Virus genome (UHGV): UHGV-0141986
Length of the DNA: 11,633 nucleotides
Strand: one strand, 5' to 3'
Source of the DNA: a virus
The notes below the pieces were generated by a model. That model made no database searches, had not been told where the DNA came from, and was given only the letters and a program-made list of their open reading frames with translations. The position numbers were made by a program, and so were the translations under genes. Each line of letters opens with the position of its first letter. The first letter of the stretch is position 1. Of the stretch, positions 2,066-10,051 are shown one piece after another.

Positions 2066-2299
2066 ATGGCTACTGTCCCAGCCCTCACTCGTCTGAATGA
2101 TGAAGACTTACATAAACTCAGTTATGTAACAACTGCACTACGTGCTCTGCGCAAGGTAACTCTTTCGGATCCGCAGGCGCATCAGGTTCTGGTAGAAACC
2201 CTTCTTAACTTGCAGGCTGAACGTATTCGTCTGGCGGGTAAGGCTAATTTTCATATTCACCGTCTTCTGAATATCAGCGGAGGGCATCGTCATGCTTAA
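2066..2299 (+). CDS. Hypothetical small phage early protein (77 aa)
   Basis: ATG 2066 with GGAGG at 2053-2057; stop overlaps the next start (translational coupling). No family recognised. Confidence 0.6.
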   Translation: MATVPALTRLNDEDLHKLSYVTTALRALRKVTLSDPQAHQVLVETLLNLQAERIRLAGKANFHIHRLLNISGGHRHA

Positions 2300-2528
2300 T
2301 CCGTTGATCCTCAATATTTGCCGTTTGCTTCAGCGTAAAAAAACATCAATTCCTACCGTTGGTCAGTGGTATACCACGCCTGCAGGGCATGTTCTACGTG
2401 TTAGCCTGGTTGACCGTGAATGTCAGAAGGTGGTTTGTGAACCGCTGGGCCGTAATTACCGCGTCAGTATGCCGCTTATAGCCTTTCGCTCCGGAAAAAA
2501 CATGAAGCATCTCGGAGGTGCAGCATGA
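2292..2528 (+). CDS. Hypothetical small phage protein (78 aa), possible paralog of the 1637-1816 product
   Basis: ATG 2292 with GGAGGG at 2279-2284. Segment GQWYTTPAGHVLRVSLVDRECQKVVCEPLGRNYRVSMPLIAF shares a Y..G.V.V...RV...YP.EC..P..F-type pattern with the 1637-1816 product. Stop overlaps the next start (ATGA at 2525). Confidence 0.6.
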   Translation: MLNPLILNICRLLQRKKTSIPTVGQWYTTPAGHVLRVSLVDRECQKVVCEPLGRNYRVSMPLIAFRSGKNMKHLGGAA

Positions 2529-3364
2529 GTATGGAGCTGATGGTTAAAGCGATGAAAATTCGAGTGGGTAATCCATTGCGAAAACTGGTTCTGATCAAGC
2601 TGGCTGATAATGCCAGCGATCAGGGTGAGTGCTGGCCCAGCTACCAGCATATTGCTGACCAGTGCGAGATTAGCAAACGTTCTGTGATGAATCATATTGC
2701 GGCCCTTTGTGAGTCCGGGCTGGTAAAAAAAGTCACCCGGAAAGGTGAAAAAGGTAACTCAAGTAATATCTATCTCCTTCATCTGGATGGTGCAGGAGAT
2801 TCACTAGGGGGTAGTGCAAATAATTCACTATCTGGTGCAGCAAATTCACCAGGTAGTGCAGGAGTTGCACCAGGTAGTGCAGGAGTTGCACCAGGGGGTA
2901 GTGCAGGAGATTCACCCAGAACCAGTCACTCTTTTGAACCAGTCAAAGAATCAGTCAATGAACCAATAGCTGTTGGTGCATCTGCTGATGAGTCTGTGCG
3001 AGTTCGTTCAAACCGACCGGAATACTCTCCGGAGTTTGAGCAGGCATGGCTGGCATATCCCAAACGTGCTGGTGGCAATTCAAAATCAGCAGCCTTCAAA
3101 GCCTGGAAAGCCCGTTTGAACGAGGGGGTAAACCCCGAAACCATGCTGGAAGGTGTGAATCGCTACGCGGGCTGGGTATCTGCGATGGGCAATAGCGGTA
3201 CACAATTTGTGAAACAGGCTGTCACGTTCTTTGGTCCGGATCGTCATTTCGAAGAATCCTGGGAAGTTCCTGCGGTATCTGCAGCCAGACGCGAGGACCC
3301 GTACTTCAAAGCCAGTTACGACAAAGTGGACTACAGCCAGATCCCGGCAGGATTCAGGGGGTGA
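2525..3364 (+). CDS. Phage replication initiation protein (N-terminal winged-HTH replisome-organizer domain, Gly/Ser/Ala-rich linker, C-terminal domain)
   Basis: 279 aa. N-terminus LRKLVLIKLADNASDQGECWPSYQHIADQCEISKRSVMNHIAALCESGLVKKV matches the HTH_36-type domain of phage replication initiators (from memory). GGAGG at 2513-2517. The linker is encoded by the repeat array at 2789-2917. Confidence 0.75.
   Translation: MSMELMVKAMKIRVGNPLRKLVLIKLADNASDQGECWPSYQHIADQCEISKRSVMNHIAALCESGLVKKVTRKGEKGNSSNIYLLHLDGAGDSLGGSANNSLSGAANSPGSAGVAPGSAGVAPGGSAGDSPRTSHSFEPVKESVNEPIAVGASADESVRVRSNRPEYSPEFEQAWLAYPKRAGGNSKSAAFKAWKARLNEGVNPETMLEGVNRYAGWVSAMGNSGTQFVKQAVTFFGPDRHFEESWEVPAVSAARREDPYFKASYDKVDYSQIPAGFRG
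2789..2917. repeat. Array of six iteron-like direct repeats (core GTGCA-N5-TKCAC, 21-24 bp spacing) inside the replication gene; candidate replication origin
   Basis: Core elements start at 2790, 2814, 2835, 2856, 2877 and 2901. Units at 2852-2872 and 2873-2893 are identical 21-mers (GGTAGTGCAGGAGTTGCACCA). Each core has internal dyad symmetry (GTGCA / TGCAC). Confidence 0.6.
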
Positions 3365-3366
3365 TC

Positions 3367-3855
3367 ATGAGTCTGTTAAATGACGTTCAGAAATTCATTG
3401 AAGCCCATCCTGGGTGTACTTCCGGAGACATTGCGGATGCTTTTGCAGGTTACTCACGGCAGCGCGTTCTGCAGTCTGCAAGCAAGTTACGTCAGAGTGG
3501 GCGTGTGGCTCACCGTTGTGAAGGATATACACGCAGACATTTCCCGCGCCTGACTGAGAGAGCGCAGGAGCCGGAACCACAACCAGTTCGTGAAACCAGA
3601 CCTGTGCGCAATTTCTATGTCGGCACTAACGATCCCCGGGTGATTTTGTGCCTGACCCGCCAGGCTGAAGAACTGGAGTCCAGGGGCTTATACCGTCGTG
3701 CTGCAACCGTGTGGATGGCGGCATTCCGTGAAAGCCACTCCCAGCCAGAACGAAACAATTTTCTGGCACGTCGTGAGCGGTGCTTACGGAAAAGCAGCAA
3801 GCGCGCTGTATCGGGTGATGAGTGGTATCTGTCAGGGAATTACGTGGGGGCTTAA
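3367..3855 (+). CDS. PerC-family-like putative transcriptional regulator
   Basis: ATG 3367 preceded by GGGGG (3356-3360). C-terminal segment LTRQAEELESRGLYRRAATVWMAAF resembles the conserved PerC/Pch core (from memory). Stop overlaps the Dam start (TAATG). Confidence 0.6.
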   Translation: MSLLNDVQKFIEAHPGCTSGDIADAFAGYSRQRVLQSASKLRQSGRVAHRCEGYTRRHFPRLTERAQEPEPQPVRETRPVRNFYVGTNDPRVILCLTRQAEELESRGLYRRAATVWMAAFRESHSQPERNNFLARRERCLRKSSKRAVSGDEWYLSGNYVGA

Positions 3856-4478
3856 TGAGTAATAAATATTGCCAGGAGCTGGTGGAGCTGCGGAACAAAC
3901 CAGCCCATGAACTGAAGGAAGTGGGCGATCAGTGGCGCACGCCGGATAACATTTTCTGGGGAATTAACACCCTGTTTGGCCCGTTTGTCCTGGATCTGTT
4001 TACTGACGGTGATAACGCCAAATGTACCGCGTATTACACGGCGGAAGACAACGCGCTGGCGCATGACTGGTCAGAACGTCTTGCGGAGCTTAAAGGTGCT
4101 GCCTTTGGTAATCCCCCATACAGCCGCGCCAGTCAGCATGAGGGGCAATACATCACCGGCATGCGTGATAAAGGCGGGCGCTATGTTTTCCTGATCAAAG
4201 CTGCCACCAGCGAAGTGTGGTGGCCGGAAGATGCAGATCATATTGCTTTTATTCGCGGGCGTATTGGTTTTGAACTGCCTGCCTGGTTTATCCCGAAAGA
4301 TGAGAAGCAGGTGCCGACAGGCGCTTTCTTCGCTGGTGCTATTGCTGTTTTCGACAAGACCTGGAAGGGACCGGCAATCAGCTACATCGGGCGCGATGAA
4401 CTTGAGGCATGTGGTGAGGCGTTTCTGGCGCAGGTTCGCCAGCAGGCGGAAAAACTGGTCAGGGAGATGGCGGCATGA
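3855..4478 (+). CDS. Phage DNA N-6-adenine methyltransferase (Dam, phage-type)
   Basis: MSNKYCQELVELRNKPAHELKEVGDQWRTPDNIFWGINTLFGPFVLDLFTDGDNAKCTAYYTAEDNALAHDWSE...AAFGNPPYS carries the NPPY catalytic motif and the N-terminal WxTP signature. Track start 3822 overlaps the upstream gene; ATG 3855 is preferred. Confidence 0.85.
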   Translation: MSNKYCQELVELRNKPAHELKEVGDQWRTPDNIFWGINTLFGPFVLDLFTDGDNAKCTAYYTAEDNALAHDWSERLAELKGAAFGNPPYSRASQHEGQYITGMRDKGGRYVFLIKAATSEVWWPEDADHIAFIRGRIGFELPAWFIPKDEKQVPTGAFFAGAIAVFDKTWKGPAISYIGRDELEACGEAFLAQVRQQAEKLVREMAA

Positions 4479-4801
4479 CGACTTTAACTCAATGCCAGCA
4501 GCAGGTGCTGGATATGCTGATTTCTTATCAGAAAGAACGTGGCTTCCCGCCAACCAATCAGGAGGTGGCAACCATGCTGGGATACCGTTCAGTGAATGCA
4601 GCGGTGGAGCATCTTCGCGCACTGGAGAAAAAAGGCGTCATCACGATAAAGCGTGGTGTGGCCCGGGGGATCACGCTTCATACCGTGGTGAAGGACGACG
4701 ACAGCGAGGCGGTCGGGATTATCCGCTCACTGCTTGCCGGTGAGGAAAACGCCAGGCTGCGTGCAGCCCACTGGTTACATGAGAGGGGCCTGAAAGTATG
4801 A
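4475..4801 (+). CDS. LexA-like protein with DNA-binding domain only (no S24 peptidase domain)
   Basis: 108 aa. First ~70 aa (MTTLTQCQQQVLDMLISYQKERGFPPTNQEVATMLGYRSVNAAVEHLRALEKKGVITIKRGVARGITLH) align by eye to the E. coli LexA N-terminal winged helix. The 39-aa tail has no Ser/Lys peptidase motifs. ATGA overlap with Dam stop. Confidence 0.8.
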   Translation: MTTLTQCQQQVLDMLISYQKERGFPPTNQEVATMLGYRSVNAAVEHLRALEKKGVITIKRGVARGITLHTVVKDDDSEAVGIIRSLLAGEENARLRAAHWLHERGLKV

Positions 4802-5193
4802 AGCTGATCCTGCCTTTTCCGCCCAGCGTGAACACGTACTGGCGACACCCCAACAAAGGGGCGTTTGCTGGTAAGAGCCTGATAAGCGCGGCGGGGCGAA
4901 AATTCCAGAGCGCGGCGTGTGCAGCAATAGTTGAGCAGTTACGTCGTCTGCCAAAACCAACGTCGGCACCTGCTTCAGTGGAGATCGTGTTGTTTCCTCC
5001 GGATAACCGGATCCGCGATCTGGACAACTATAACAAGGCGCTGTTTGACGCCCTGACCCACGCGGGTGTGTGGGAAGACGACAGTCAGGTGAAAAGAATG
5101 CTGGTGGAGTGGGGACCGGTTATCCCGGAGGGGAAGGTCGAGATCACTATCAGTAAGTACGAAAAAGCGAGTTGCAAATTAGCAACTCGGTAA
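4798..5193 (+). CDS. rusA: Holliday-junction resolvase RusA
   Basis: 131 aa. LPFPPSVNTYWRH...RDLDNYNKALFDALTHAGVWEDDSQV matches the RusA family including the catalytic Asp-rich RDLDN region. ATGA overlap with upstream stop. Confidence 0.9.
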   Translation: MKLILPFPPSVNTYWRHPNKGAFAGKSLISAAGRKFQSAACAAIVEQLRRLPKPTSAPASVEIVLFPPDNRIRDLDNYNKALFDALTHAGVWEDDSQVKRMLVEWGPVIPEGKVEITISKYEKASCKLATR

Positions 5194-5238
5194 CGGAATT
5201 GAGCAACACCCTAAATTTGGGTATTACCTCGTTAAAGA

Positions 5239-5258
5239 TACTGTATTTATGAACAGTG
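5239..5258. promoter_or_regulatory. Candidate LexA (SOS) box TACTGTATTTATGAACAGTG upstream of the KilA-N gene
   Basis: CTGT-N8-ACAG with AT-rich spacer; 16 of 20 positions match consensus TACTGTATATATATACAGTA. It lies about 100 nt upstream of ATG 5356, next to a candidate promoter (-35 TTGATA 5264-5269, -10 TAAGTT 5287-5292). Confidence 0.55.
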
Positions 5259-5355
5259 TATCCTTGATAACTATTAAAAATCGCAGTAAGTTCATCCTGC
5301 ATCAACGAAAAGGGAGTGCAGTCCCGCTCGTGGATAAAAATTTGTGGAGAAACCA

Positions 5356-6171
5356 ATGAATCAGTTGCTTGTAATTGATGGCGTTTCTGTGCGCCAGTAC
5401 TTCGAATCTAACTACTGTCTTAACGACCTTCAGAAAGCTGCTCTTCTTGCCGCTGGTGAGAATCGCTCCTCCCGTTCGCTGGAAGTTCACGAGTTTATGC
5501 GTCGTCCTGAAACGAAGGCTCTTGTGGAATTATTGGAAGAAGAAACTACGGGAGATTCCCGTAGTATTCCTGTCATCACCATTCAGGGGCGCAATGGTGG
5601 GACGTATGTCTGTAAAGAGCTGGTCTATGCATATGCAATGTGGATCAGCCCGGCATTCAGCTTAAAAGTGATACGTACTTTTGATGCGCTTCATAATTCA
5701 TCACCAGAAGAAACCACATCCGACAAAATTAAATCCGGGGTCATTCTGCTTGAATCAGCAGCAAAGACTCTAAATCTGTCAAACTCCTCGAAACTTGGTG
5801 CATACCAGAAATTATCAAAGGTAGCTGGTCTTCCTGAACTTATGCCGATCTATGCCATTGATGCACCTGCTGATGCGCCAGATGGTTCAAGCCGCCCTAC
5901 GCTGTCGCTGAGTGCACTGCTGAAGCAGTATGGTATCCGCCTGACGGCTAATCAGGCATATCACCAGATGGCGAAGCTGGGGATCGTTGAACAACGCGAA
6001 CGATACAGTCGTACCGCGATTAACAACATCAAAAAATTCTGGTCGCTGACCGCGAAAGGCTGCATGTTCGGCAAGAACATCACCAGTCCTGCAAATCCGC
6101 GCGAGACGCAGCCGCATTTCTTCGAATCCCGATTCCCTGAGCTGTTAAAGCTGCTCGATACCGTTCATTGA
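5356..6171 (+). CDS. KilA-N domain protein (antirepressor/Roi-like)
   Basis: GGAG at 5346-5349 precedes ATG 5356. N-terminal domain ...GRNGGTYVCKELVYAYAMWISPAFSLKVIRTF fits the KilA-N signature. Track start GTG 5344 is less likely. Confidence 0.75.
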   Translation: MNQLLVIDGVSVRQYFESNYCLNDLQKAALLAAGENRSSRSLEVHEFMRRPETKALVELLEEETTGDSRSIPVITIQGRNGGTYVCKELVYAYAMWISPAFSLKVIRTFDALHNSSPEETTSDKIKSGVILLESAAKTLNLSNSSKLGAYQKLSKVAGLPELMPIYAIDAPADAPDGSSRPTLSLSALLKQYGIRLTANQAYHQMAKLGIVEQRERYSRTAINNIKKFWSLTAKGCMFGKNITSPANPRETQPHFFESRFPELLKLLDTVH

Positions 6172-7181: not shown

Positions 7182-7934
7182 ATGAACCTTGAAGCCTTAC
7201 CAAAATATTACTCCCCAAAATCTCCAAAATTGAGTGATGACGCACCGGCGACAGGCTCTGGTGGTTTAACGATTACGGATGTGATGGCTGCGCAGGGGAT
7301 GGTGCAATCGAAAGCACCGCTTGGGTTTGCCTTATTCCTGGCAAAAGTTGGTGTTCAGGATCCTCAGTTTGCGATTGAAGGTCTGCTCAATTACGCGATG
7401 GCACTGGATAACCCGACATTGAATAAATTGAGTGAAGAAACCCGGCTACAGATTATTCCTTACCTTGTGAATTTTGCCTTTGCTGATTATTCCAGGTCTG
7501 CGGCAAGTAAGGCTCGTTGTGAGCATTGTGCTGGTACTGGATTTCATAATGTATTGCGCGAAGTGGTGAAACACTCCAGAAGCGGGGAATCTGTTATCAA
7601 AGAAGAGTGGGTGAAGGAACTATGTCAGCATTGCCATGGTAAGGGAGAAGTCAGCACAGCGTGCAGAGGGTGTAAGGGTAAAGGTATTGTCCTGGATGAA
7701 AAAAGGACCCGGCTTCATGGCACACCTGTTTATAAGATTTGTGGGCGTTGCAATGGAAAACGGTTTAGTCGTTTACCAACCACACTGGCGCGGCATCATG
7801 TCCAGAAGCTGGTACCGGACCTGAGTGATTATCAGTGGTATAAAGGATATGCAAATGTCATTGATAAACTGGTTACAAAGTGCTGGCAGGAGGAATCTTA
7901 CGCTGAAGCACAATTGAGAAAGGTGACGAGATAA
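7182..7934 (+). CDS. Late-gene antitermination protein Q (QuuQ-like, phage 21/82 type)
   Basis: 250 aa with multiple Cys pairs (CEHCAGTG, CQHCHGKG, CRGCKGKG, CGRCNGKRF). GGAG at 7171-7174 precedes ATG 7182. Followed by a promoter-plus-terminator leader, as expected for Q. Confidence 0.85.
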   Translation: MNLEALPKYYSPKSPKLSDDAPATGSGGLTITDVMAAQGMVQSKAPLGFALFLAKVGVQDPQFAIEGLLNYAMALDNPTLNKLSEETRLQIIPYLVNFAFADYSRSAASKARCEHCAGTGFHNVLREVVKHSRSGESVIKEEWVKELCQHCHGKGEVSTACRGCKGKGIVLDEKRTRLHGTPVYKICGRCNGKRFSRLPTTLARHHVQKLVPDLSDYQWYKGYANVIDKLVTKCWQEESYAEAQLRKVTR

Positions 7935-7983: not shown

Positions 7984-8038
7984 TGGATAAAATTTTTTCA
8001 ACGATGGGCTTTGTATACCCGAAGTTAAGAAAAAGTAG

Positions 8039-8066
8039 AAAACCCGCTGATGAGCGGGTTTTTGTG
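8039..8066 (+). terminator. Rho-independent terminator (tR'-like)
   Basis: AACCCGCT (8041-8048), loop GATG, AGCGGGTT (8053-8060), followed by TTTGTGCTTT. Confidence 0.65.
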
Positions 8067-8355
8067 CTTTAAATAGGGTAATAGAGATGTTGAATCTCAT
8101 TACGGGATTCATGTTAGTTTACTTATTATTTATCGGGTGACTTTGTTTTTTGCCTGATGTTTAAAATGTTTTCTTCCAGTACAATGTCCATAGATACAAT
8201 GAGTTTGCTTATTACATTATTAGCAGAGCTATTAAGGTCAAAGTACAGCATAAGCTTTTAAAGCCAATCAACCAGTCATCAAGACAGACGGGTTTATTCA
8301 TGAAAACTCTCCATGTTTGATTCGATGGGGCTTGAAGTTAAAGCTTTAATATAGC

Positions 8356-8568
8356 TCATGAAAGGTAAACATTGGCAGCTGATGGTCCACGCAGACCATT
8401 TATCCGGCAAAATTCCACGCGTAATCCGGTGGTAATTTCTTCTGCATCGCGGAGATTGAGCGCTGAAACATGAAGCTGGACATCGATACGACCATCGGAT
8501 GGGGTTATAAGACCTTTGCCGCTTTTGCCGTCAAAGGTTTTGAGAATTCCTGTCATTTTACGGGACAA
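8356..8568 (-). CDS. cspF: Cold-shock-like protein CspF/CspH type (lacks canonical RNP motifs); TTG start
   Basis: [70 protein letters not shown]. First codon on the minus strand is TTG (8568-8566), preceded by TAAGGA; first ATG is at 8556. Divergent from cspB as in Qin. Confidence 0.85.
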
Positions 8569-8867
8569 AAAATTCCTTAATACTGATAACTTGGCGCACT
8601 ATACACACGTTCCTGAAGAAAGCTATAGTTTTTTGATGGGGTTGAAGATGGCTGGATGTCTAAAATAAACATTGCTTCATATGTTCAACTATGCGTTAAT
8701 GATTGCGTCGGTTTGAAGAACAGACGATATACGAAGTAGTTTACTAAAGCAGTTCTCATTTCAGGTGTTATTCACTTATTCCTTCTTTGAGTCTCTCCAA
8801 TTAAGTACGAAGTCGTTTCTGTTATACAAGCCATTTATGCCGAAAGGCTCAAGTTAAGGAATGTAGA
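8569..8867. promoter_or_regulatory. Divergent cspF/cspB promoter region and long cspB 5' UTR
   Basis: 299-bp AT-rich intergenic region between divergent csp genes. Long structured 5' UTRs are a known property of cold-shock mRNAs. TAAGGA SD 7 nt before cspB ATG. Individual elements not resolved. Confidence 0.35.
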
Positions 8868-9083
8868 ATGTCAAATAAAATGACTGGTTTAGTAAAATGG
8901 TTTAACGCTGATAAAGGTTTTGGCTTTATTTCTCCTGTTGATGGTAGTAAAGATGTGTTTGTGCATTTTTCTGCGATTCAGAATGATAATTATCGAACCT
9001 TATTTGAAGGTCAAAAGGTTACCTTCTCTGTAGAGAGTGGTGCTAAAGGTCCTGCAGCAGCAAATGTCATAATTACTGATTAA
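8868..9083 (+). CDS. cspB: Cold-shock protein CspB-like (CspA family)
   Basis: [71 protein letters not shown] with RNP1 (KGFGFI) and RNP2 (VFVHF) motifs. Confidence 0.9.
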
Positions 9084-9364
9084 AATTCATAGTTTGTCTG
9101 TATACGATAACGAAGAAGGCTGATGCCTGAGTGGAGATACAGACAGAGTGGTGAATATTGGATCTCTTTAATAAATAGTAAGGAGGTCCAATACATGAAA
9201 CAATGGCCAGCATATTTGGCAATAACTTAATCAGGAAAAGTATGCTAACCATTGTGGTGAAGTGCAGGTTTGCTGCATGAATAGTTTTACAGCAGAAGCT
9301 AACTGCTGGCATAGCAAAACAAAGTGCGTAAGTGGATGACTCCCACAAAAAGTACCACAATATT

Positions 9365-9391
9365 AAACCCGCTCAGGCGGGTTTTTTATTA
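9365..9391 (+). terminator. Rho-independent terminator
   Basis: AAACCCGC (9365-9372), loop TCAG, GCGGGTTT (9377-9384), then TTTTATT. Partly symmetric, so it may also serve the minus-strand small gene at 9447-9617. Confidence 0.6.
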
Positions 9392-9446
9392 TCTGCTTTA
9401 AATATGTTATTAAAATATAAAAAATACTTGTTACGAATAAAATCAA

Positions 9447-9617
9447 TCAAGCTACAGCTTTAAGATTTGTCTGGAATACTTTGTTGCAATGAGGGCAGAT
9501 CAAAAGGGCACCTTTTTGTATTCTTGAAAAACTGTGTTCTGACTCTTGGGTGCAGTTTGGGCAGGAACATTTAACGAGATAATTACGGCGTGATTTTGAG
9601 TCTTTACGTTCTGACAT
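9447..9617 (-). CDS. Small zinc-ribbon protein (56 aa, two CxxC pairs); possibly YnfQ/YmcF-like cold-shock-associated small protein
   Basis: MSERKDSKSRRNYLVKCSCPNCTQESEHSFSRIQKGALLICPHCNKVFQTNLKAVA. AGGAA SD 7 nt upstream of ATG at 9617-9615. Track start 9668 adds an implausible extension. Family assignment is from memory. Confidence 0.55.
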   Translation of the reverse strand: MSERKDSKSRRNYLVKCSCPNCTQESEHSFSRIQKGALLICPHCNKVFQTNLKAVA

Positions 9618-9835
9618 AGGCTTTTCCTGTATAAATGGCCGTATACAGTACACTAAATATGAAAACATATCTCGTATTATTATTTAACATATGATTTTCT
9701 TTTAAAATAATTACCCACATTTTTAATGTGTCTGTTTTTTAGCGCCGTTGAGAACAACGTTTGCTATAAAAACTACCCCATAGACTCCGATCTTTTCAAA
9801 CATATTGCACCATCTGTGTACATCGGGGTGAGGAT

Positions 9836-10051
9836 ATGAAATCAATGGATAAGTTAACAACAGGTATCGCCTATGGCACATCGGCTGGTAATGCTGGTTT
9901 CTGGGCATTGCAGTTACTCGATAAAGTAACTCCGTCACAGTGGGCTGCAATCGGTGTGCTGGGTAGTCTGGTATTTGGCTTGCTGACGTACCTGACAAAC
10001 CTTTATTTCAAGATTAAAGAAGACAAGCGTAAGGTTGCACGGGGAGAGTAA
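9836..10051 (+). CDS. Class II holin (phage-21 S-type pinholin) with dual-start motif MKSMDK
   Basis: [71 protein letters not shown]. Two transmembrane segments and a charged C-terminus. Starts at Met1 and Met4 mirror the S21 antiholin/holin pair. GAGG precedes the ATG. Confidence 0.9.

What the first reader, a model, noticed from the sequence alone, without database searches (positions are those of the whole stretch)
3367..3855. PerC-like regulator carried in the prophage early region
The C-terminal half carries a PerC-like core (AEELESRGLYRRAATVWMAAF). In pathogenic E. coli, prophage-encoded PerC homologs can activate host virulence regulons, so this gene could cross-regulate host genes. 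The first ~65 residues look like a separate domain I do not recognise.
Basis: partly seen in the sequence, partly recalled or inferred. Interest (0 to 1): 0.35.

Follow-up and report, generated by a model that had tools for sequence, protein, structure and literature searches.

The report
Known prophage gene yfdN, PerC family

Summary
The ORF is real: ATG 3367, stop 3853-3855, 162 aa. Comparison with the Salmonella phage ST64B ortholog gives dN/dS 0.17, so it is under purifying selection. Pfam PerC (PF06069) scores 38.1 bits against a cut-off of 22.6 over aa 98-151. EPEC PerC itself aligns to the same stretch (BLASTP 2e-7; profile comparison 97.7% probability). The gene is yfdN. Megablast finds it in 2674 of 5426 complete E. 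coli genomes, including K-12 prophage CPS-53, annotated "PerC family transcriptional regulator". It also occurs in phages SfV, SfII, SfIV, mEp460, Stx2c phages and ST64B. The unrecognised N-terminal part (aa 1-63) is a winged helix-turn-helix, shown by an AlphaFold model, Foldseek matches to BlaI, SmtB and Hop2, and profile hits to BlaI and MarR. A disordered linker joins it to a three-helix PerC domain, which is also related to the ANR (AraC negative regulator) family. The gene is translationally coupled in the early-right operon between an O-like replication gene and a Dam methylase. Activation of host virulence genes is untested, and what is published on other non-group-1 PerC homologues shows little or no LEE activation, or repression. 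Verdict: the observation and family assignment are correct, the gene is already known, and interest is low.

The parts
3367..3855 (+). yfdN-type coding sequence (162 aa plus TAA stop). RefSeq starts it at GTG 3361, giving 164 aa.
   Evidence: ORF list and sequence. PHROG 1324 matches full length at 4.8e-78. Annotated yfdN / PerC family in 2674 of 5426 E. coli genomes. dN/dS 0.167 against ST64B sb43.
3356..3361 (+). Shine-Dalgarno-like AGGGGG, 5 nt upstream of ATG 3367. It lies at the end of the upstream gene, whose TGA stop is at 3362-3364.
   Evidence: Read directly from the sequence. Homologues start at the same Met.
3367..3555 (+). N-terminal winged helix-turn-helix domain, aa 1-63. Helices at 3-13, 19-25 and 31-44 (the last is the predicted recognition helix); beta-hairpin wing at 47-52 and 55-60.
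   Evidence: AlphaFold2 blocks have pLDDT 88-94. Foldseek matches BlaI DNA-binding domain (rmsd 2.1 A over 67 aligned columns), Hop2 winged helix (TM 0.79), YgaV and SmtB. The family profile hits BlaI (2.9e-4), MarR and MecI in the PDB. 10 of 35 homologues hit Pfam MarR_2 and 9 of 35 hit Penicillinase_R. The helix-3-plus-wing segment has pI 11.8.
3556..3633 (+). Pro/Glu-rich linker, aa 64-89, variable in length among homologues.
   Evidence: pLDDT below 50 for aa 64-79 and no secondary structure up to aa 89. The alignment is gappy here.
3634..3795 (+). PerC domain, aa 90-143: three helices (90-105, 109-122, 126-143) carrying the invariant residues L103, R111, A112 and C139.
   Evidence: Pfam PF06069 38.1 bits over aa 98-151. 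EPEC PerC aligns here. pLDDT 94-97. Invariant columns listed. Sub-threshold NCBIfam ANR match over aa 96-142; 24 of 35 homologues hit the ANR model.
3796..3852 (+). C-terminal tail, aa 144-162, with a conserved W-x-L-[AS]-G-x-[YF]-x-G ending and no predicted structure.
   Evidence: L155, G157, Y159 and G161 are conserved in 60-91% of 35 homologues. pLDDT about 50. The tail is absent from EPEC PerC.
2525..3364 (+). Upstream neighbour: O-like replication initiator (HTH_36 / DnaD_N) with iteron-like 21-nt repeats at 2786-2916. Its stop codon lies 2 nt before the yfdN ATG.
   Evidence: Pfam and repeats. The same neighbour is found in SfV, ST64B and in Lelliottia, Cronobacter and Erwinia prophages.
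3855..4478 (+). Downstream neighbour: phage Dam N6-adenine methyltransferase. Its ATG overlaps the yfdN stop (TAATG).
   Evidence: Pfam PF05869 at 5.9e-44. Overlap read from the sequence. No sigma-70-like promoter on either strand and no + strand terminator-like site in 2200-5300.

Best explanation
The locus is an intact copy of yfdN, the two-domain branch of the PerC family carried by SfV-like / lambdoid prophages of Enterobacterales. What is shown: it is a 162-aa basic protein (pI 10) made of an N-terminal winged helix-turn-helix, a disordered linker, a three-helix PerC domain and a short conserved tail. It is translationally coupled to its neighbours inside the early-right operon, between the O-like replication initiator and the Dam methylase. 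It should therefore be made with the delayed-early genes after prophage induction or infection, not in the repressed lysogen. What is inferred: it acts as a DNA-bound transcription modulator. The winged helix would place it on DNA. The PerC/ANR-type helical domain would act by protein-protein contact on nucleoid-associated or activator proteins (H-NS/StpA-type silencers, or AraC/XylS-type activators), as reported for short Pch proteins and for ANR proteins. Its most likely role is to adjust silencing or activation of phage genes, and incidentally host genes, during lytic development. A dedicated role as an activator of host virulence regulons is less likely.
For: Identity and family: Pfam PerC above threshold; all 35 diverged homologues hit PerC; EPEC PerC aligns; RefSeq annotates it yfdN / PerC family in 2674 of 5426 genomes; it is present in SfV, SfII, SfIV, mEp460, Stx2c phages and ST64B. 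Architecture: AlphaFold2 model; Foldseek winged-helix matches; profile hits to BlaI, MarR and MecI; MarR_2 and Penicillinase_R hits in homologues; basic recognition helix and wing. Both domains are under purifying selection. Early-operon setting: Pfam context; overlapping stop and start codons; no internal promoter-like site and no + strand terminator-like site. The trio HTH_36 gene, this gene, Dam is kept at 25-40% protein identity in Lelliottia, Cronobacter and Erwinia prophages. Mechanistic analogy: PchA reduces H-NS occupancy at the LEE1 promoter and needs H-NS/StpA/Hha to show any effect (PMC4764244). ANR proteins Aar and Rnr bind H-NS, Ler and AraC-type activators (PMC10148876). The PerC domain here is related to ANR (23.5 bits, E 3.6e-5; 24 of 35 homologues hit the model, best 4e-9). 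The best structural neighbours of the PerC domain alone are TPR/MIT-type protein-binding helical hairpins, not DNA-binding folds.
Against: No experiment on YfdN was found. It is still called uncharacterised (bioRxiv 10.1101/2025.05.07.652715), and the only phenotypes are from screens: altered glycogen accumulation on over-expression (PMC2853380) and co-induction with prophage genes under NO stress (PMC5320621). The authors of PMC4764244 report no co-precipitation of PchA with H-NS (their unpublished observation), so a direct PerC-H-NS contact is doubtful. The Foldseek matches for the PerC domain are not significant (best E 0.38). DNA binding by the winged helix is predicted, not shown; the window protein itself reaches no Pfam HTH threshold. 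Winged-helix domains can also bind proteins, as the RPA32 C-terminal domain among the profile hits does (its protein-binding role is from my own knowledge). No candidate operator was found near the gene.
Confidence: 0.7

Rival explanations
1. Host virulence cross-regulator, the first reader's idea: the prophage protein works like EPEC PerC or EHEC PchA/B/C and switches on host regulons such as LEE through the ler (LEE1) promoter.
For: It is a true PerC-family member. PerC and PchA/B/C activate LEE1 (PMC5931665, PMC4764244). Uhlich et al. considered yfdN enough of a possible confounder to delete it from their K-12 ler::lacZ reporter strain (PMC5931665). The gene is carried by Stx2c-converting phages of O157 at 97.5% identity.
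Against: Outside group 1, the PerC homologues that have been tested do not behave this way. PchD has no effect and PchE less than a 2-fold effect on ler (PMC5931665). PerC-like proteins of EcCIEDL933 and EcCICFT073 have no effect on LEE1 fusions, and EcCIMP1_025 represses LEE1 (PMC11773190). The window protein is only 32% identical to PerC over 56 aa and has a different architecture. The gene is present in 2674 of 5426 complete E. coli genomes including K-12, and in Salmonella, Kluyvera, Erwinia, Cronobacter and Lelliottia prophages. Its operon position predicts expression only after induction.
Confidence: 0.1
2. ANR-like anti-activator: the PerC/ANR domain binds and inactivates a transcription factor (an AraC/XylS-type activator, or an H-NS-family protein) purely by protein-protein contact, so the protein is a negative regulator. 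The winged helix would serve as a second interaction surface or for tethering.
For: The NCBIfam ANR model matches aa 96-142 (E 3.6e-5), and 24 of 35 homologues match it (best 4e-9). A PerC-annotated PICI protein represses LEE1, and its authors suggest it is really ANR-like (PMC11773190). ANR proteins bind H-NS, Ler and AraC-type proteins (PMC10148876). The PerC domain has TPR/MIT-like structural neighbours.
Against: The ANR score (23.5 bits) is below the curated cut-off of 32, while Pfam PerC is above its own cut-off. ANR proteins are single-domain proteins of 4.4-9.5 kDa (PMC10148876), whereas this protein has 162 aa. No AraC-family gene lies in the window, whereas Aar and Rnr are each named after a partner AraC-type activator (AggR, RegA; PMC10148876).
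Confidence: 0.15
3. Replication-module or Ren-like accessory protein: its job is tied to the neighbouring O-like initiator or the Dam methylase (for example at the origin), or it protects the phage from exclusion as lambda Ren does, rather than regulating transcription.
For: It directly follows the HTH_36 replication gene, with abutting or overlapping stop and start codons, in the window and in the SfV-like prophage loci of seven other genera or phages. That is the map position of ren in lambda. The N-terminal domain weakly resembles the Ren-like PHROG 142 (window E 0.012; 7 of 35 homologues, best 2.4e-5) and lambda Ren itself (hhalign E 0.0037). Natural 234-aa fusions of the O N-terminus to YfdN exist.
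Against: In Kluyvera prophages the two-domain homologue sits in the early-left recombination/integration operon instead (DUF3799 exonuclease, RecT, this gene, DUF4060, Xis, Int), with no replication gene or Dam nearby. In many E. coli genomes Dam is absent and a LexA-like gene follows directly. The Ren similarity has only 8.9% hhalign probability and may reflect only the shared winged-helix fold. No PADLOC defence model matches.
Confidence: 0.05

Closest known systems
E. coli K-12 YfdN (b2357, prophage CPS-53/KpLE1) and its phage orthologues SfV orf40 and ST64B sb43
   Same: Same gene. The K-12-derived genomes match over all 489 nt at 95.7% identity. The protein is 96.3% identical to the SfV copy and 68.5% identical to the ST64B copy. 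The neighbours are the same: O-like replication gene upstream, Dam (yfdM) downstream.
   Different: Nothing of substance; allelic differences only. In K-12 the surrounding prophage is defective (the ST64B record describes the yfdM product as a 10.3-kDa protein), whereas the window carries an apparently intact early region.
EPEC PerC (plasmid pMAR2) and EHEC PchA/B/C, Pfam PF06069
   Same: Homologous three-helix core with the L-E-x-x-G-[LF]-[YW]-R-R-A-A motif and the conserved Cys. Carried on a mobile element.
   Different: PerC (89 aa) and Pch group 1 (315 bp, PMC5931665) consist essentially of the PerC core, which starts at about residue 5, plus an unrelated C-terminal extension. They have no winged-helix domain. 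The window protein adds a 63-aa winged helix and a linker in front, and a different conserved tail. Identity is 32% over 56 aa. LEE1 activation has been shown for PerC and PchA/B/C but never tested for YfdN.
ANR family (Aar, Rnr; NCBIfam NF033650)
   Same: The PerC domain matches the ANR profile over 47 of its 54 positions, and 24 of 35 homologues do too. Both are small basic helical modules on mobile DNA of enteric bacteria that affect H-NS-controlled genes.
   Different: The score is below the curated ANR cut-off (23.5 against 32). ANR proteins are single-domain (4.4-9.5 kDa) negative regulators, and Aar and Rnr each have a partner AraC-type activator (PMC10148876). Here there is no AraC gene, and there is an extra DNA-binding-type domain.
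Winged-helix domains of BlaI/MecI, MarR and ArsR/SmtB repressors
   Same: The N-terminal 63 residues have the same fold: three helices and a beta-hairpin wing, with rmsd 1.7-2.8 A over about 58-67 aligned columns. Profile similarity exists as well.
   Different: No BlaI/MecI or MarR dimerisation domain follows. The window sequence itself reaches no Pfam HTH threshold.
Lambda Ren (PHROG 142)
   Same: A small protein that aligns in register with the winged helix, encoded immediately after the replication genes.
   Different: The similarity is weak (hhalign probability 8.9%). Ren has no PerC domain. The position is not conserved in Kluyvera prophages.

Membership tests
PerC family (Pfam PF06069) | Profile score above the curated gathering threshold | tested here: met
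   38.1 bits against a cut-off of 22.6, E 1.9e-9, aa 98-151 matching profile positions 5-58 of 90. All 35 diverged homologues also hit the model.
PerC family (Pfam PF06069) | Detectable homology to the founder protein, PerC of EPEC E2348/69 plasmid pMAR2 | tested here: met
   BLASTP E 2e-7 with 32% identity over 56 aa. hhalign of the C-terminal family profile against PerC gives 97.7% probability and E 1.9e-12.
PerC family (Pfam PF06069) | Conserved core residues: Leu of the L-E motif, R-A of R-R-A-A, and the Cys in helix 3 | tested here: met
   L103, R111, A112 and C139 are invariant in 35 sequences and are present in EPEC PerC in the alignment.
PerC family (Pfam PF06069) | Small single-domain architecture of the characterised members (PerC 89 aa; PchA/B/C 315 bp) | tested here: not met
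   The protein has 162 aa, with an extra N-terminal winged helix and a linker. This is a sub-family difference and is not part of the Pfam definition.
PerC family (Pfam PF06069) | Activates the LEE1/ler promoter by relieving H-NS-dependent silencing | not testable with these tools
   Needs reporter assays. Published data show this property is limited to group-1 Pch and PerC (PMC5931665, PMC4764244, PMC11773190).
ANR family (NCBIfam NF033650) | Profile score above the curated cut-off | tested here: not met
   23.5 bits against a cut-off of 32. 24 of 35 homologues match at E <= 0.01, so the two are related, but this protein is not a member.
ANR family (NCBIfam NF033650) | Single-domain protein under 10 kDa with a partner AraC/XylS-type activator | tested here: not met
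   The protein has 162 aa and two domains. No AraC-family gene is in the window. Sizes and partners of ANR proteins are from PMC10148876.
Winged helix-turn-helix (MarR / BlaI-MecI type) | Three-helix bundle followed by a beta-hairpin wing | tested here: met
   The AlphaFold2 model has helices at 3-13, 19-25 and 31-44 and strands at 47-52 and 55-60, with pLDDT 88-94. Foldseek: BlaI DNA-binding domain rmsd 2.1 A, Hop2 winged helix TM 0.79, YgaV rmsd 1.8 A.
Winged helix-turn-helix (MarR / BlaI-MecI type) | Sequence-profile membership in a curated HTH family | tested here: inconclusive
   The window protein has no Pfam HTH hit at E <= 10 and only PHROG 1687 at 9.6e-5. 10 of 35 homologues hit MarR_2 and 9 of 35 hit Penicillinase_R. 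The family profile hits BlaI in the PDB at 2.9e-4.
Winged helix-turn-helix (MarR / BlaI-MecI type) | Sequence-specific DNA binding | not testable with these tools
   The only indirect evidence is the basic recognition helix and wing: pI 11.8, with 9 Lys/Arg against 1 Asp/Glu.
Lambda Ren-like proteins (PHROG 142) | Profile match to the Ren family | tested here: inconclusive
   Window E 0.012. 7 of 35 homologues match, best 2.4e-5. hhalign against lambda Ren gives E 0.0037 but only 8.9% probability.

The most novel reading that the evidence does not exclude
YfdN-type proteins could be a DNA-tethered form of the PerC/ANR module. The winged helix would dock at specific phage sites, for example the AT-rich (36-39% GC) block between Q and the lysis genes. 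The PerC domain would then locally dismantle H-NS-family silencing complexes after induction. If true, this would supply the missing mechanism for the whole PerC/Pch/ANR superfamily: a protein-contact module that needs a DNA-targeting partner, fused here and supplied in trans for the short PerC/Pch proteins. It would also identify a phage-encoded, early-expressed anti-silencer present in half of E. coli genomes.
Probability: 0.15. Interest if true: 0.45.

Novelty: already known. Interest (0 to 1): 0.12.

Why it matters
It matters little as a discovery. The gene, its family and its prophage setting are already in RefSeq, Pfam and PHROGs. The modest added value has three parts. First, the unplaced N-terminal half is a winged helix-turn-helix, so this common branch of the PerC family pairs a DNA-binding-type domain with the PerC core. 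Second, PerC and ANR cores belong to one superfamily whose nearest structural neighbours are protein-binding helical hairpins. That fits a protein-contact mechanism better than direct DNA binding by the PerC core. Third, the gene is a conserved delayed-early phage gene across Enterobacterales, so labelling it a virulence regulator goes beyond the evidence. YfdN is present in E. coli K-12 and has never been characterised, so it would be an easy and safe model for working out what PerC-type domains do.

Tried and rejected
(1) Is this PchE, PchD or 'PchX' of O157? PchE lies in the P4-like island OI-51/Sp7 and is one of the small variants (PMC3378721), so it is not the yfdN type. A text search for pchX returned only unrelated papers.

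(2) Porter et al. 2005 (PMC543544), the paper that tested PerC-like proteins on LEE1, is not held in the library. Its result is cited only through PMC11773190.

(3) No solved structure was found by sequence for the whole protein or for the PerC domain profile (best E 0.14). Foldseek on the PerC domain alone gave only non-significant TPR/MIT-like neighbours.

(4) The search for related loci could not build search patterns from alignments A1 or A3. A degenerate DNA pattern for G-L-[YFW]-R-R-A-A-T-[VIM]-W was used instead. It returned 24 stretches, of which about two thirds came from Enterobacterales (Kluyvera, Buttiauxella, Escherichia, Shigella) and 15 held an A1-profile hit.

(5) I considered that the gene is obligatorily linked to the replication initiator or to Dam. 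The Kluyvera prophages, where it sits between RecT and Xis/Int, count against this. So do the E. coli copies that are followed directly by a LexA-like gene.

(6) No defence-system match in PADLOC.

(7) No repeated or palindromic candidate operator was found in or next to the gene. The only strong repeats are the iteron-like units inside the O-like gene.

(8) The overlapping ORFs on other frames and strands (for example 3626-3898 on the minus strand) were not pursued. The conservation pattern and dN/dS fit the + strand frame.

Full report
OBSERVATION. The window contains an open reading frame on the + strand ending at TAA 3853-3855. It can start at GTG 3361 or at ATG 3367. The ATG is the better start. 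An AGGGGG Shine-Dalgarno-like sequence at 3356-3361 lies 5 nt upstream of it. Most of 35 diverged homologues begin at exactly this Met (M1 conserved in 86% of rows). The SfV record uses the same ATG, while RefSeq uses the GTG and gives 164 aa. The reading frame is under purifying selection. Against the 68.5%-identical orthologue sb43 of Salmonella phage ST64B, Nei-Gojobori dN/dS is 0.167 overall, 0.15 for residues 1-63 and 0.10 for residues 90-143.

Pfam PerC (PF06069) matches residues 98-151 with 38.1 bits, above its gathering cut-off of 22.6. PHROG 1324 ('transcriptional activator') matches the full length at 4.8e-78. I retrieved the founder PerC from EPEC E2348/69 plasmid pMAR2. It aligns directly with BLASTP E 2e-7 and 32% identity over 56 residues. 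A profile of the C-terminal halves of the family matches it with 97.7% hhalign probability and E 1.9e-12. Four columns are invariant across 35 sequences that are 23-98% identical to the window protein: L103, R111, A112 and C139. PerC-family membership is therefore met.

IT IS A KNOWN GENE. Megablast finds the 489-nt gene in 2674 of 5426 complete E. coli genomes, mostly at 95-99% identity. It is annotated 'yfdN: PerC family transcriptional regulator', and the hits include K-12-derived genomes, where it lies next to yfdM in prophage CPS-53. tblastn finds it in 56 phage records, among them SfV orf40, SfII, SfIV, mEp460, Stx2c-converting phages and ST64B sb43. The whole window is 99.3% identical to a prophage of strain YDC107 and about 95-97% identical to phages 2H10 and SfV. 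One paper calls yfdN 'the K12 unique PerC homologue' and deletes it from a reporter strain as a precaution (PMC5931665). A 2025 preprint still lists YfdN as uncharacterised (10.1101/2025.05.07.652715). The only phenotypic mentions found are an over-expression glycogen screen (PMC2853380) and co-induction with prophage genes under NO stress (PMC5320621).

THE UNRECOGNISED N-TERMINAL DOMAIN. An exhaustive HMMER search of 1.84 billion cluster representatives found only 100 at E <= 0.001. About thirty of these are full-length two-domain proteins at 25-47% identity. An AlphaFold2 model built on 35 of these sequences (mean pLDDT 82) shows helices at 3-13, 19-25 and 31-44 followed by a beta hairpin at 47-52 and 55-60. 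Confidence is low for residues 64-79, and there is no secondary structure before residue 90. Helices follow at 90-105, 109-122 and 126-143, and then comes a low-confidence tail. Foldseek against the PDB returns winged-helix DNA-binding domains for the N-terminal part: BlaI (rmsd 2.1 A over 67 aligned columns), Hop2 (TM 0.79), YgaV, SmtB, MepR and DriD. The family profile hits BlaI (E 2.9e-4), MarR proteins, MecI and other winged-helix domains in PDB sequences. Among the 35 homologues, 10 hit Pfam MarR_2 and 9 hit Penicillinase_R. The predicted recognition helix plus wing is strongly basic, with pI 11.8. So the first ~63 residues are a winged helix-turn-helix. One database homologue is in fact already named a BlaI/MecI/CopY-family regulator and carries PF03965 plus PF06069.

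THE PerC DOMAIN. Modelled alone (pLDDT 80), it is a three-helix unit. Its nearest structural neighbours are TPR- and MIT-type helical hairpins, which are protein-binding scaffolds, but none of these matches is significant (best E 0.38). No solved structure is detectable by sequence. The domain also matches the NCBIfam model for the ANR (AraC negative regulator) family, below that model's cut-off (23.5 bits against 32). 24 of the 35 homologues match the same model, the best at 4e-9. PerC and ANR cores therefore belong to one superfamily, a link also noted in PMC11773190. The last 19 residues have no predicted structure but end in a conserved L-[AS]-G-x-[YF]-x-G motif that EPEC PerC lacks.

CONTEXT. 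Pfam assigns the neighbours as follows: a Cro/YdaS-like gene, CII (CP76), an O-like replication initiator at 2525-3364 (HTH_36 / DnaD_N), this gene, Dam methyltransferase at 3855-4478, a LexA DNA-binding-domain protein, RusA, KilA-N, DUF968 and antiterminator Q at 7182-7934. The O-like stop codon (3362-3364) lies 2 nt before the ATG, and the TAA stop overlaps the Dam ATG (TAATG). No sigma-70-like promoter, and no terminator-like site on the + strand, was found between 2200 and 5300. The gene is therefore a translationally coupled member of the early-right operon and should be expressed after induction with the delayed-early genes. The trio O-like gene, this gene, Dam recurs in SfV and ST64B. 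It also recurs, at only 25-40% protein identity, in prophages of Lelliottia, Cronobacter and Erwinia. The linkage is not universal. In Kluyvera prophages the two-domain homologue lies in the early-left operon between RecT and DUF4060/Xis/Int, and in many E. coli genomes a LexA-like gene follows directly instead of Dam.

HOW IT MOST LIKELY WORKS. The identity, architecture and operon position are shown. The function is inferred. The protein pairs a DNA-binding-type winged helix with a PerC/ANR core. For the short relatives, two mechanisms have been published. PchA lowers H-NS occupancy at the LEE1 promoter and has no effect once H-NS, StpA and Hha are removed (PMC4764244). ANR proteins bind H-NS, Ler and AraC-type activators directly (PMC10148876). 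The best-supported model is therefore an early-expressed, DNA-bound modulator that acts on nucleoid-associated or activator proteins during lytic development. I put the mechanistic part at about one in three. It is weakened by the reported failure to co-precipitate PchA with H-NS (an unpublished observation reported in PMC4764244) and by the absence of any experiment on YfdN.

RIVALS. Only group-1 Pch proteins activate ler strongly, while PchD and PchE have minimal effect (PMC5931665). PerC-like proteins of two phage-inducible chromosomal islands (PICIs) had no effect on LEE1, and one represses it (PMC11773190). The gene is also widespread, being present in K-12 and in genera such as Kluyvera and Erwinia. 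(b) An ANR-like anti-activator role fits the sub-threshold ANR match, but the protein fails the ANR cut-off, size and gene-neighbourhood criteria. (c) A replication-module or Ren-like role is suggested by the map position and by weak similarity of the N-terminal domain to lambda Ren (PHROG 142 E 0.012; 7 of 35 homologues; hhalign probability 8.9%). The Kluyvera context weighs against it.

NOVELTY AND VERDICT. The finding is correct and its family assignment holds, but the gene is an already annotated, very common prophage gene. The added points are small refinements: the winged-helix identity of the N-terminal domain, the PerC-ANR superfamily link, TPR-like structural neighbours, and conserved early-operon placement. 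Interest is 0.12 and novelty is 'already known'. The most novel reading not excluded is a fused, DNA-tethered anti-silencer that would explain how PerC-type modules work. I give it about 15% probability.

Noticed in passing
window 2786-2916: Four to five direct repeats of about 21 nt (GGTAGTGCAGGAGTTGCACC, two copies identical) lie inside the O-like replication gene (2525-3364) and encode a GSAGVAPG repeat. They look like origin iterons embedded in the initiator gene, as in lambda O.
   Followed up: partly
window 4475-4801 (+): A 108-aa protein that consists of a LexA DNA-binding domain only (PF01726, 2.9e-19), with no S24 peptidase domain. It is conserved in SfV and Cronobacter prophages, two genes downstream of yfdN. 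It could be a non-cleavable competitor at LexA boxes.
   Followed up: no
window 7182-7934 (+): The antiterminator Q carries a DnaJ-type CXXCXGXG zinc-finger stretch (31.2 bits, just under the Pfam cut-off of 32.7) in front of the Antiterm domain.
   Followed up: no
window 8000-10000: An AT-rich block (36-40% GC, against about 50% elsewhere) lies between Q and the lysis genes. It holds accessory (moron-like) genes: cspF-like (8356-8568, minus strand), cspB-like (8868-9083, plus strand) and a ynfU-like zinc-binding ORF (9447-9668, minus strand). This is a plausible H-NS target downstream of the late promoter.
   Followed up: partly
window 3367-3555; L004 1681-1971 (lambda ren): The N-terminal winged helix weakly resembles the lambda Ren family (PHROG 142: window E 0.012; 7 of 35 homologues, best 2.4e-5; hhalign against lambda Ren E 0.0037, probability 8.9%). 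The gene occupies ren's map position, just after the replication genes.
   Followed up: partly
L017 4418-4888; L030 2892-3308 (Kluyvera prophages): Two-domain winged-helix-PerC homologues sit in a different operon here: DUF3799 PDDEXK exonuclease, RecT, the homologue, DUF4060, Xis, Int. The gene therefore moves between early-left and early-right modules.
   Followed up: yes
proteins P0026, P0027, P0028, P0040: 234-aa variants from several sources join the HTH_36 N-terminus of the O-like protein to nearly the whole of YfdN (92% coverage, 95-98% identity). They look like in-frame deletion fusions of the two adjacent genes.
   Followed up: no
protein P0192: A 214-aa relative has two tandem winged-helix domains in front of one PerC domain. 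This suggests the N-terminal module can be duplicated.
   Followed up: no
window 5344-6171 (+): The KilA-N protein gives a weak match (E 7.6e-10) to PADLOC candidate defence family PDC-S22.
   Followed up: no
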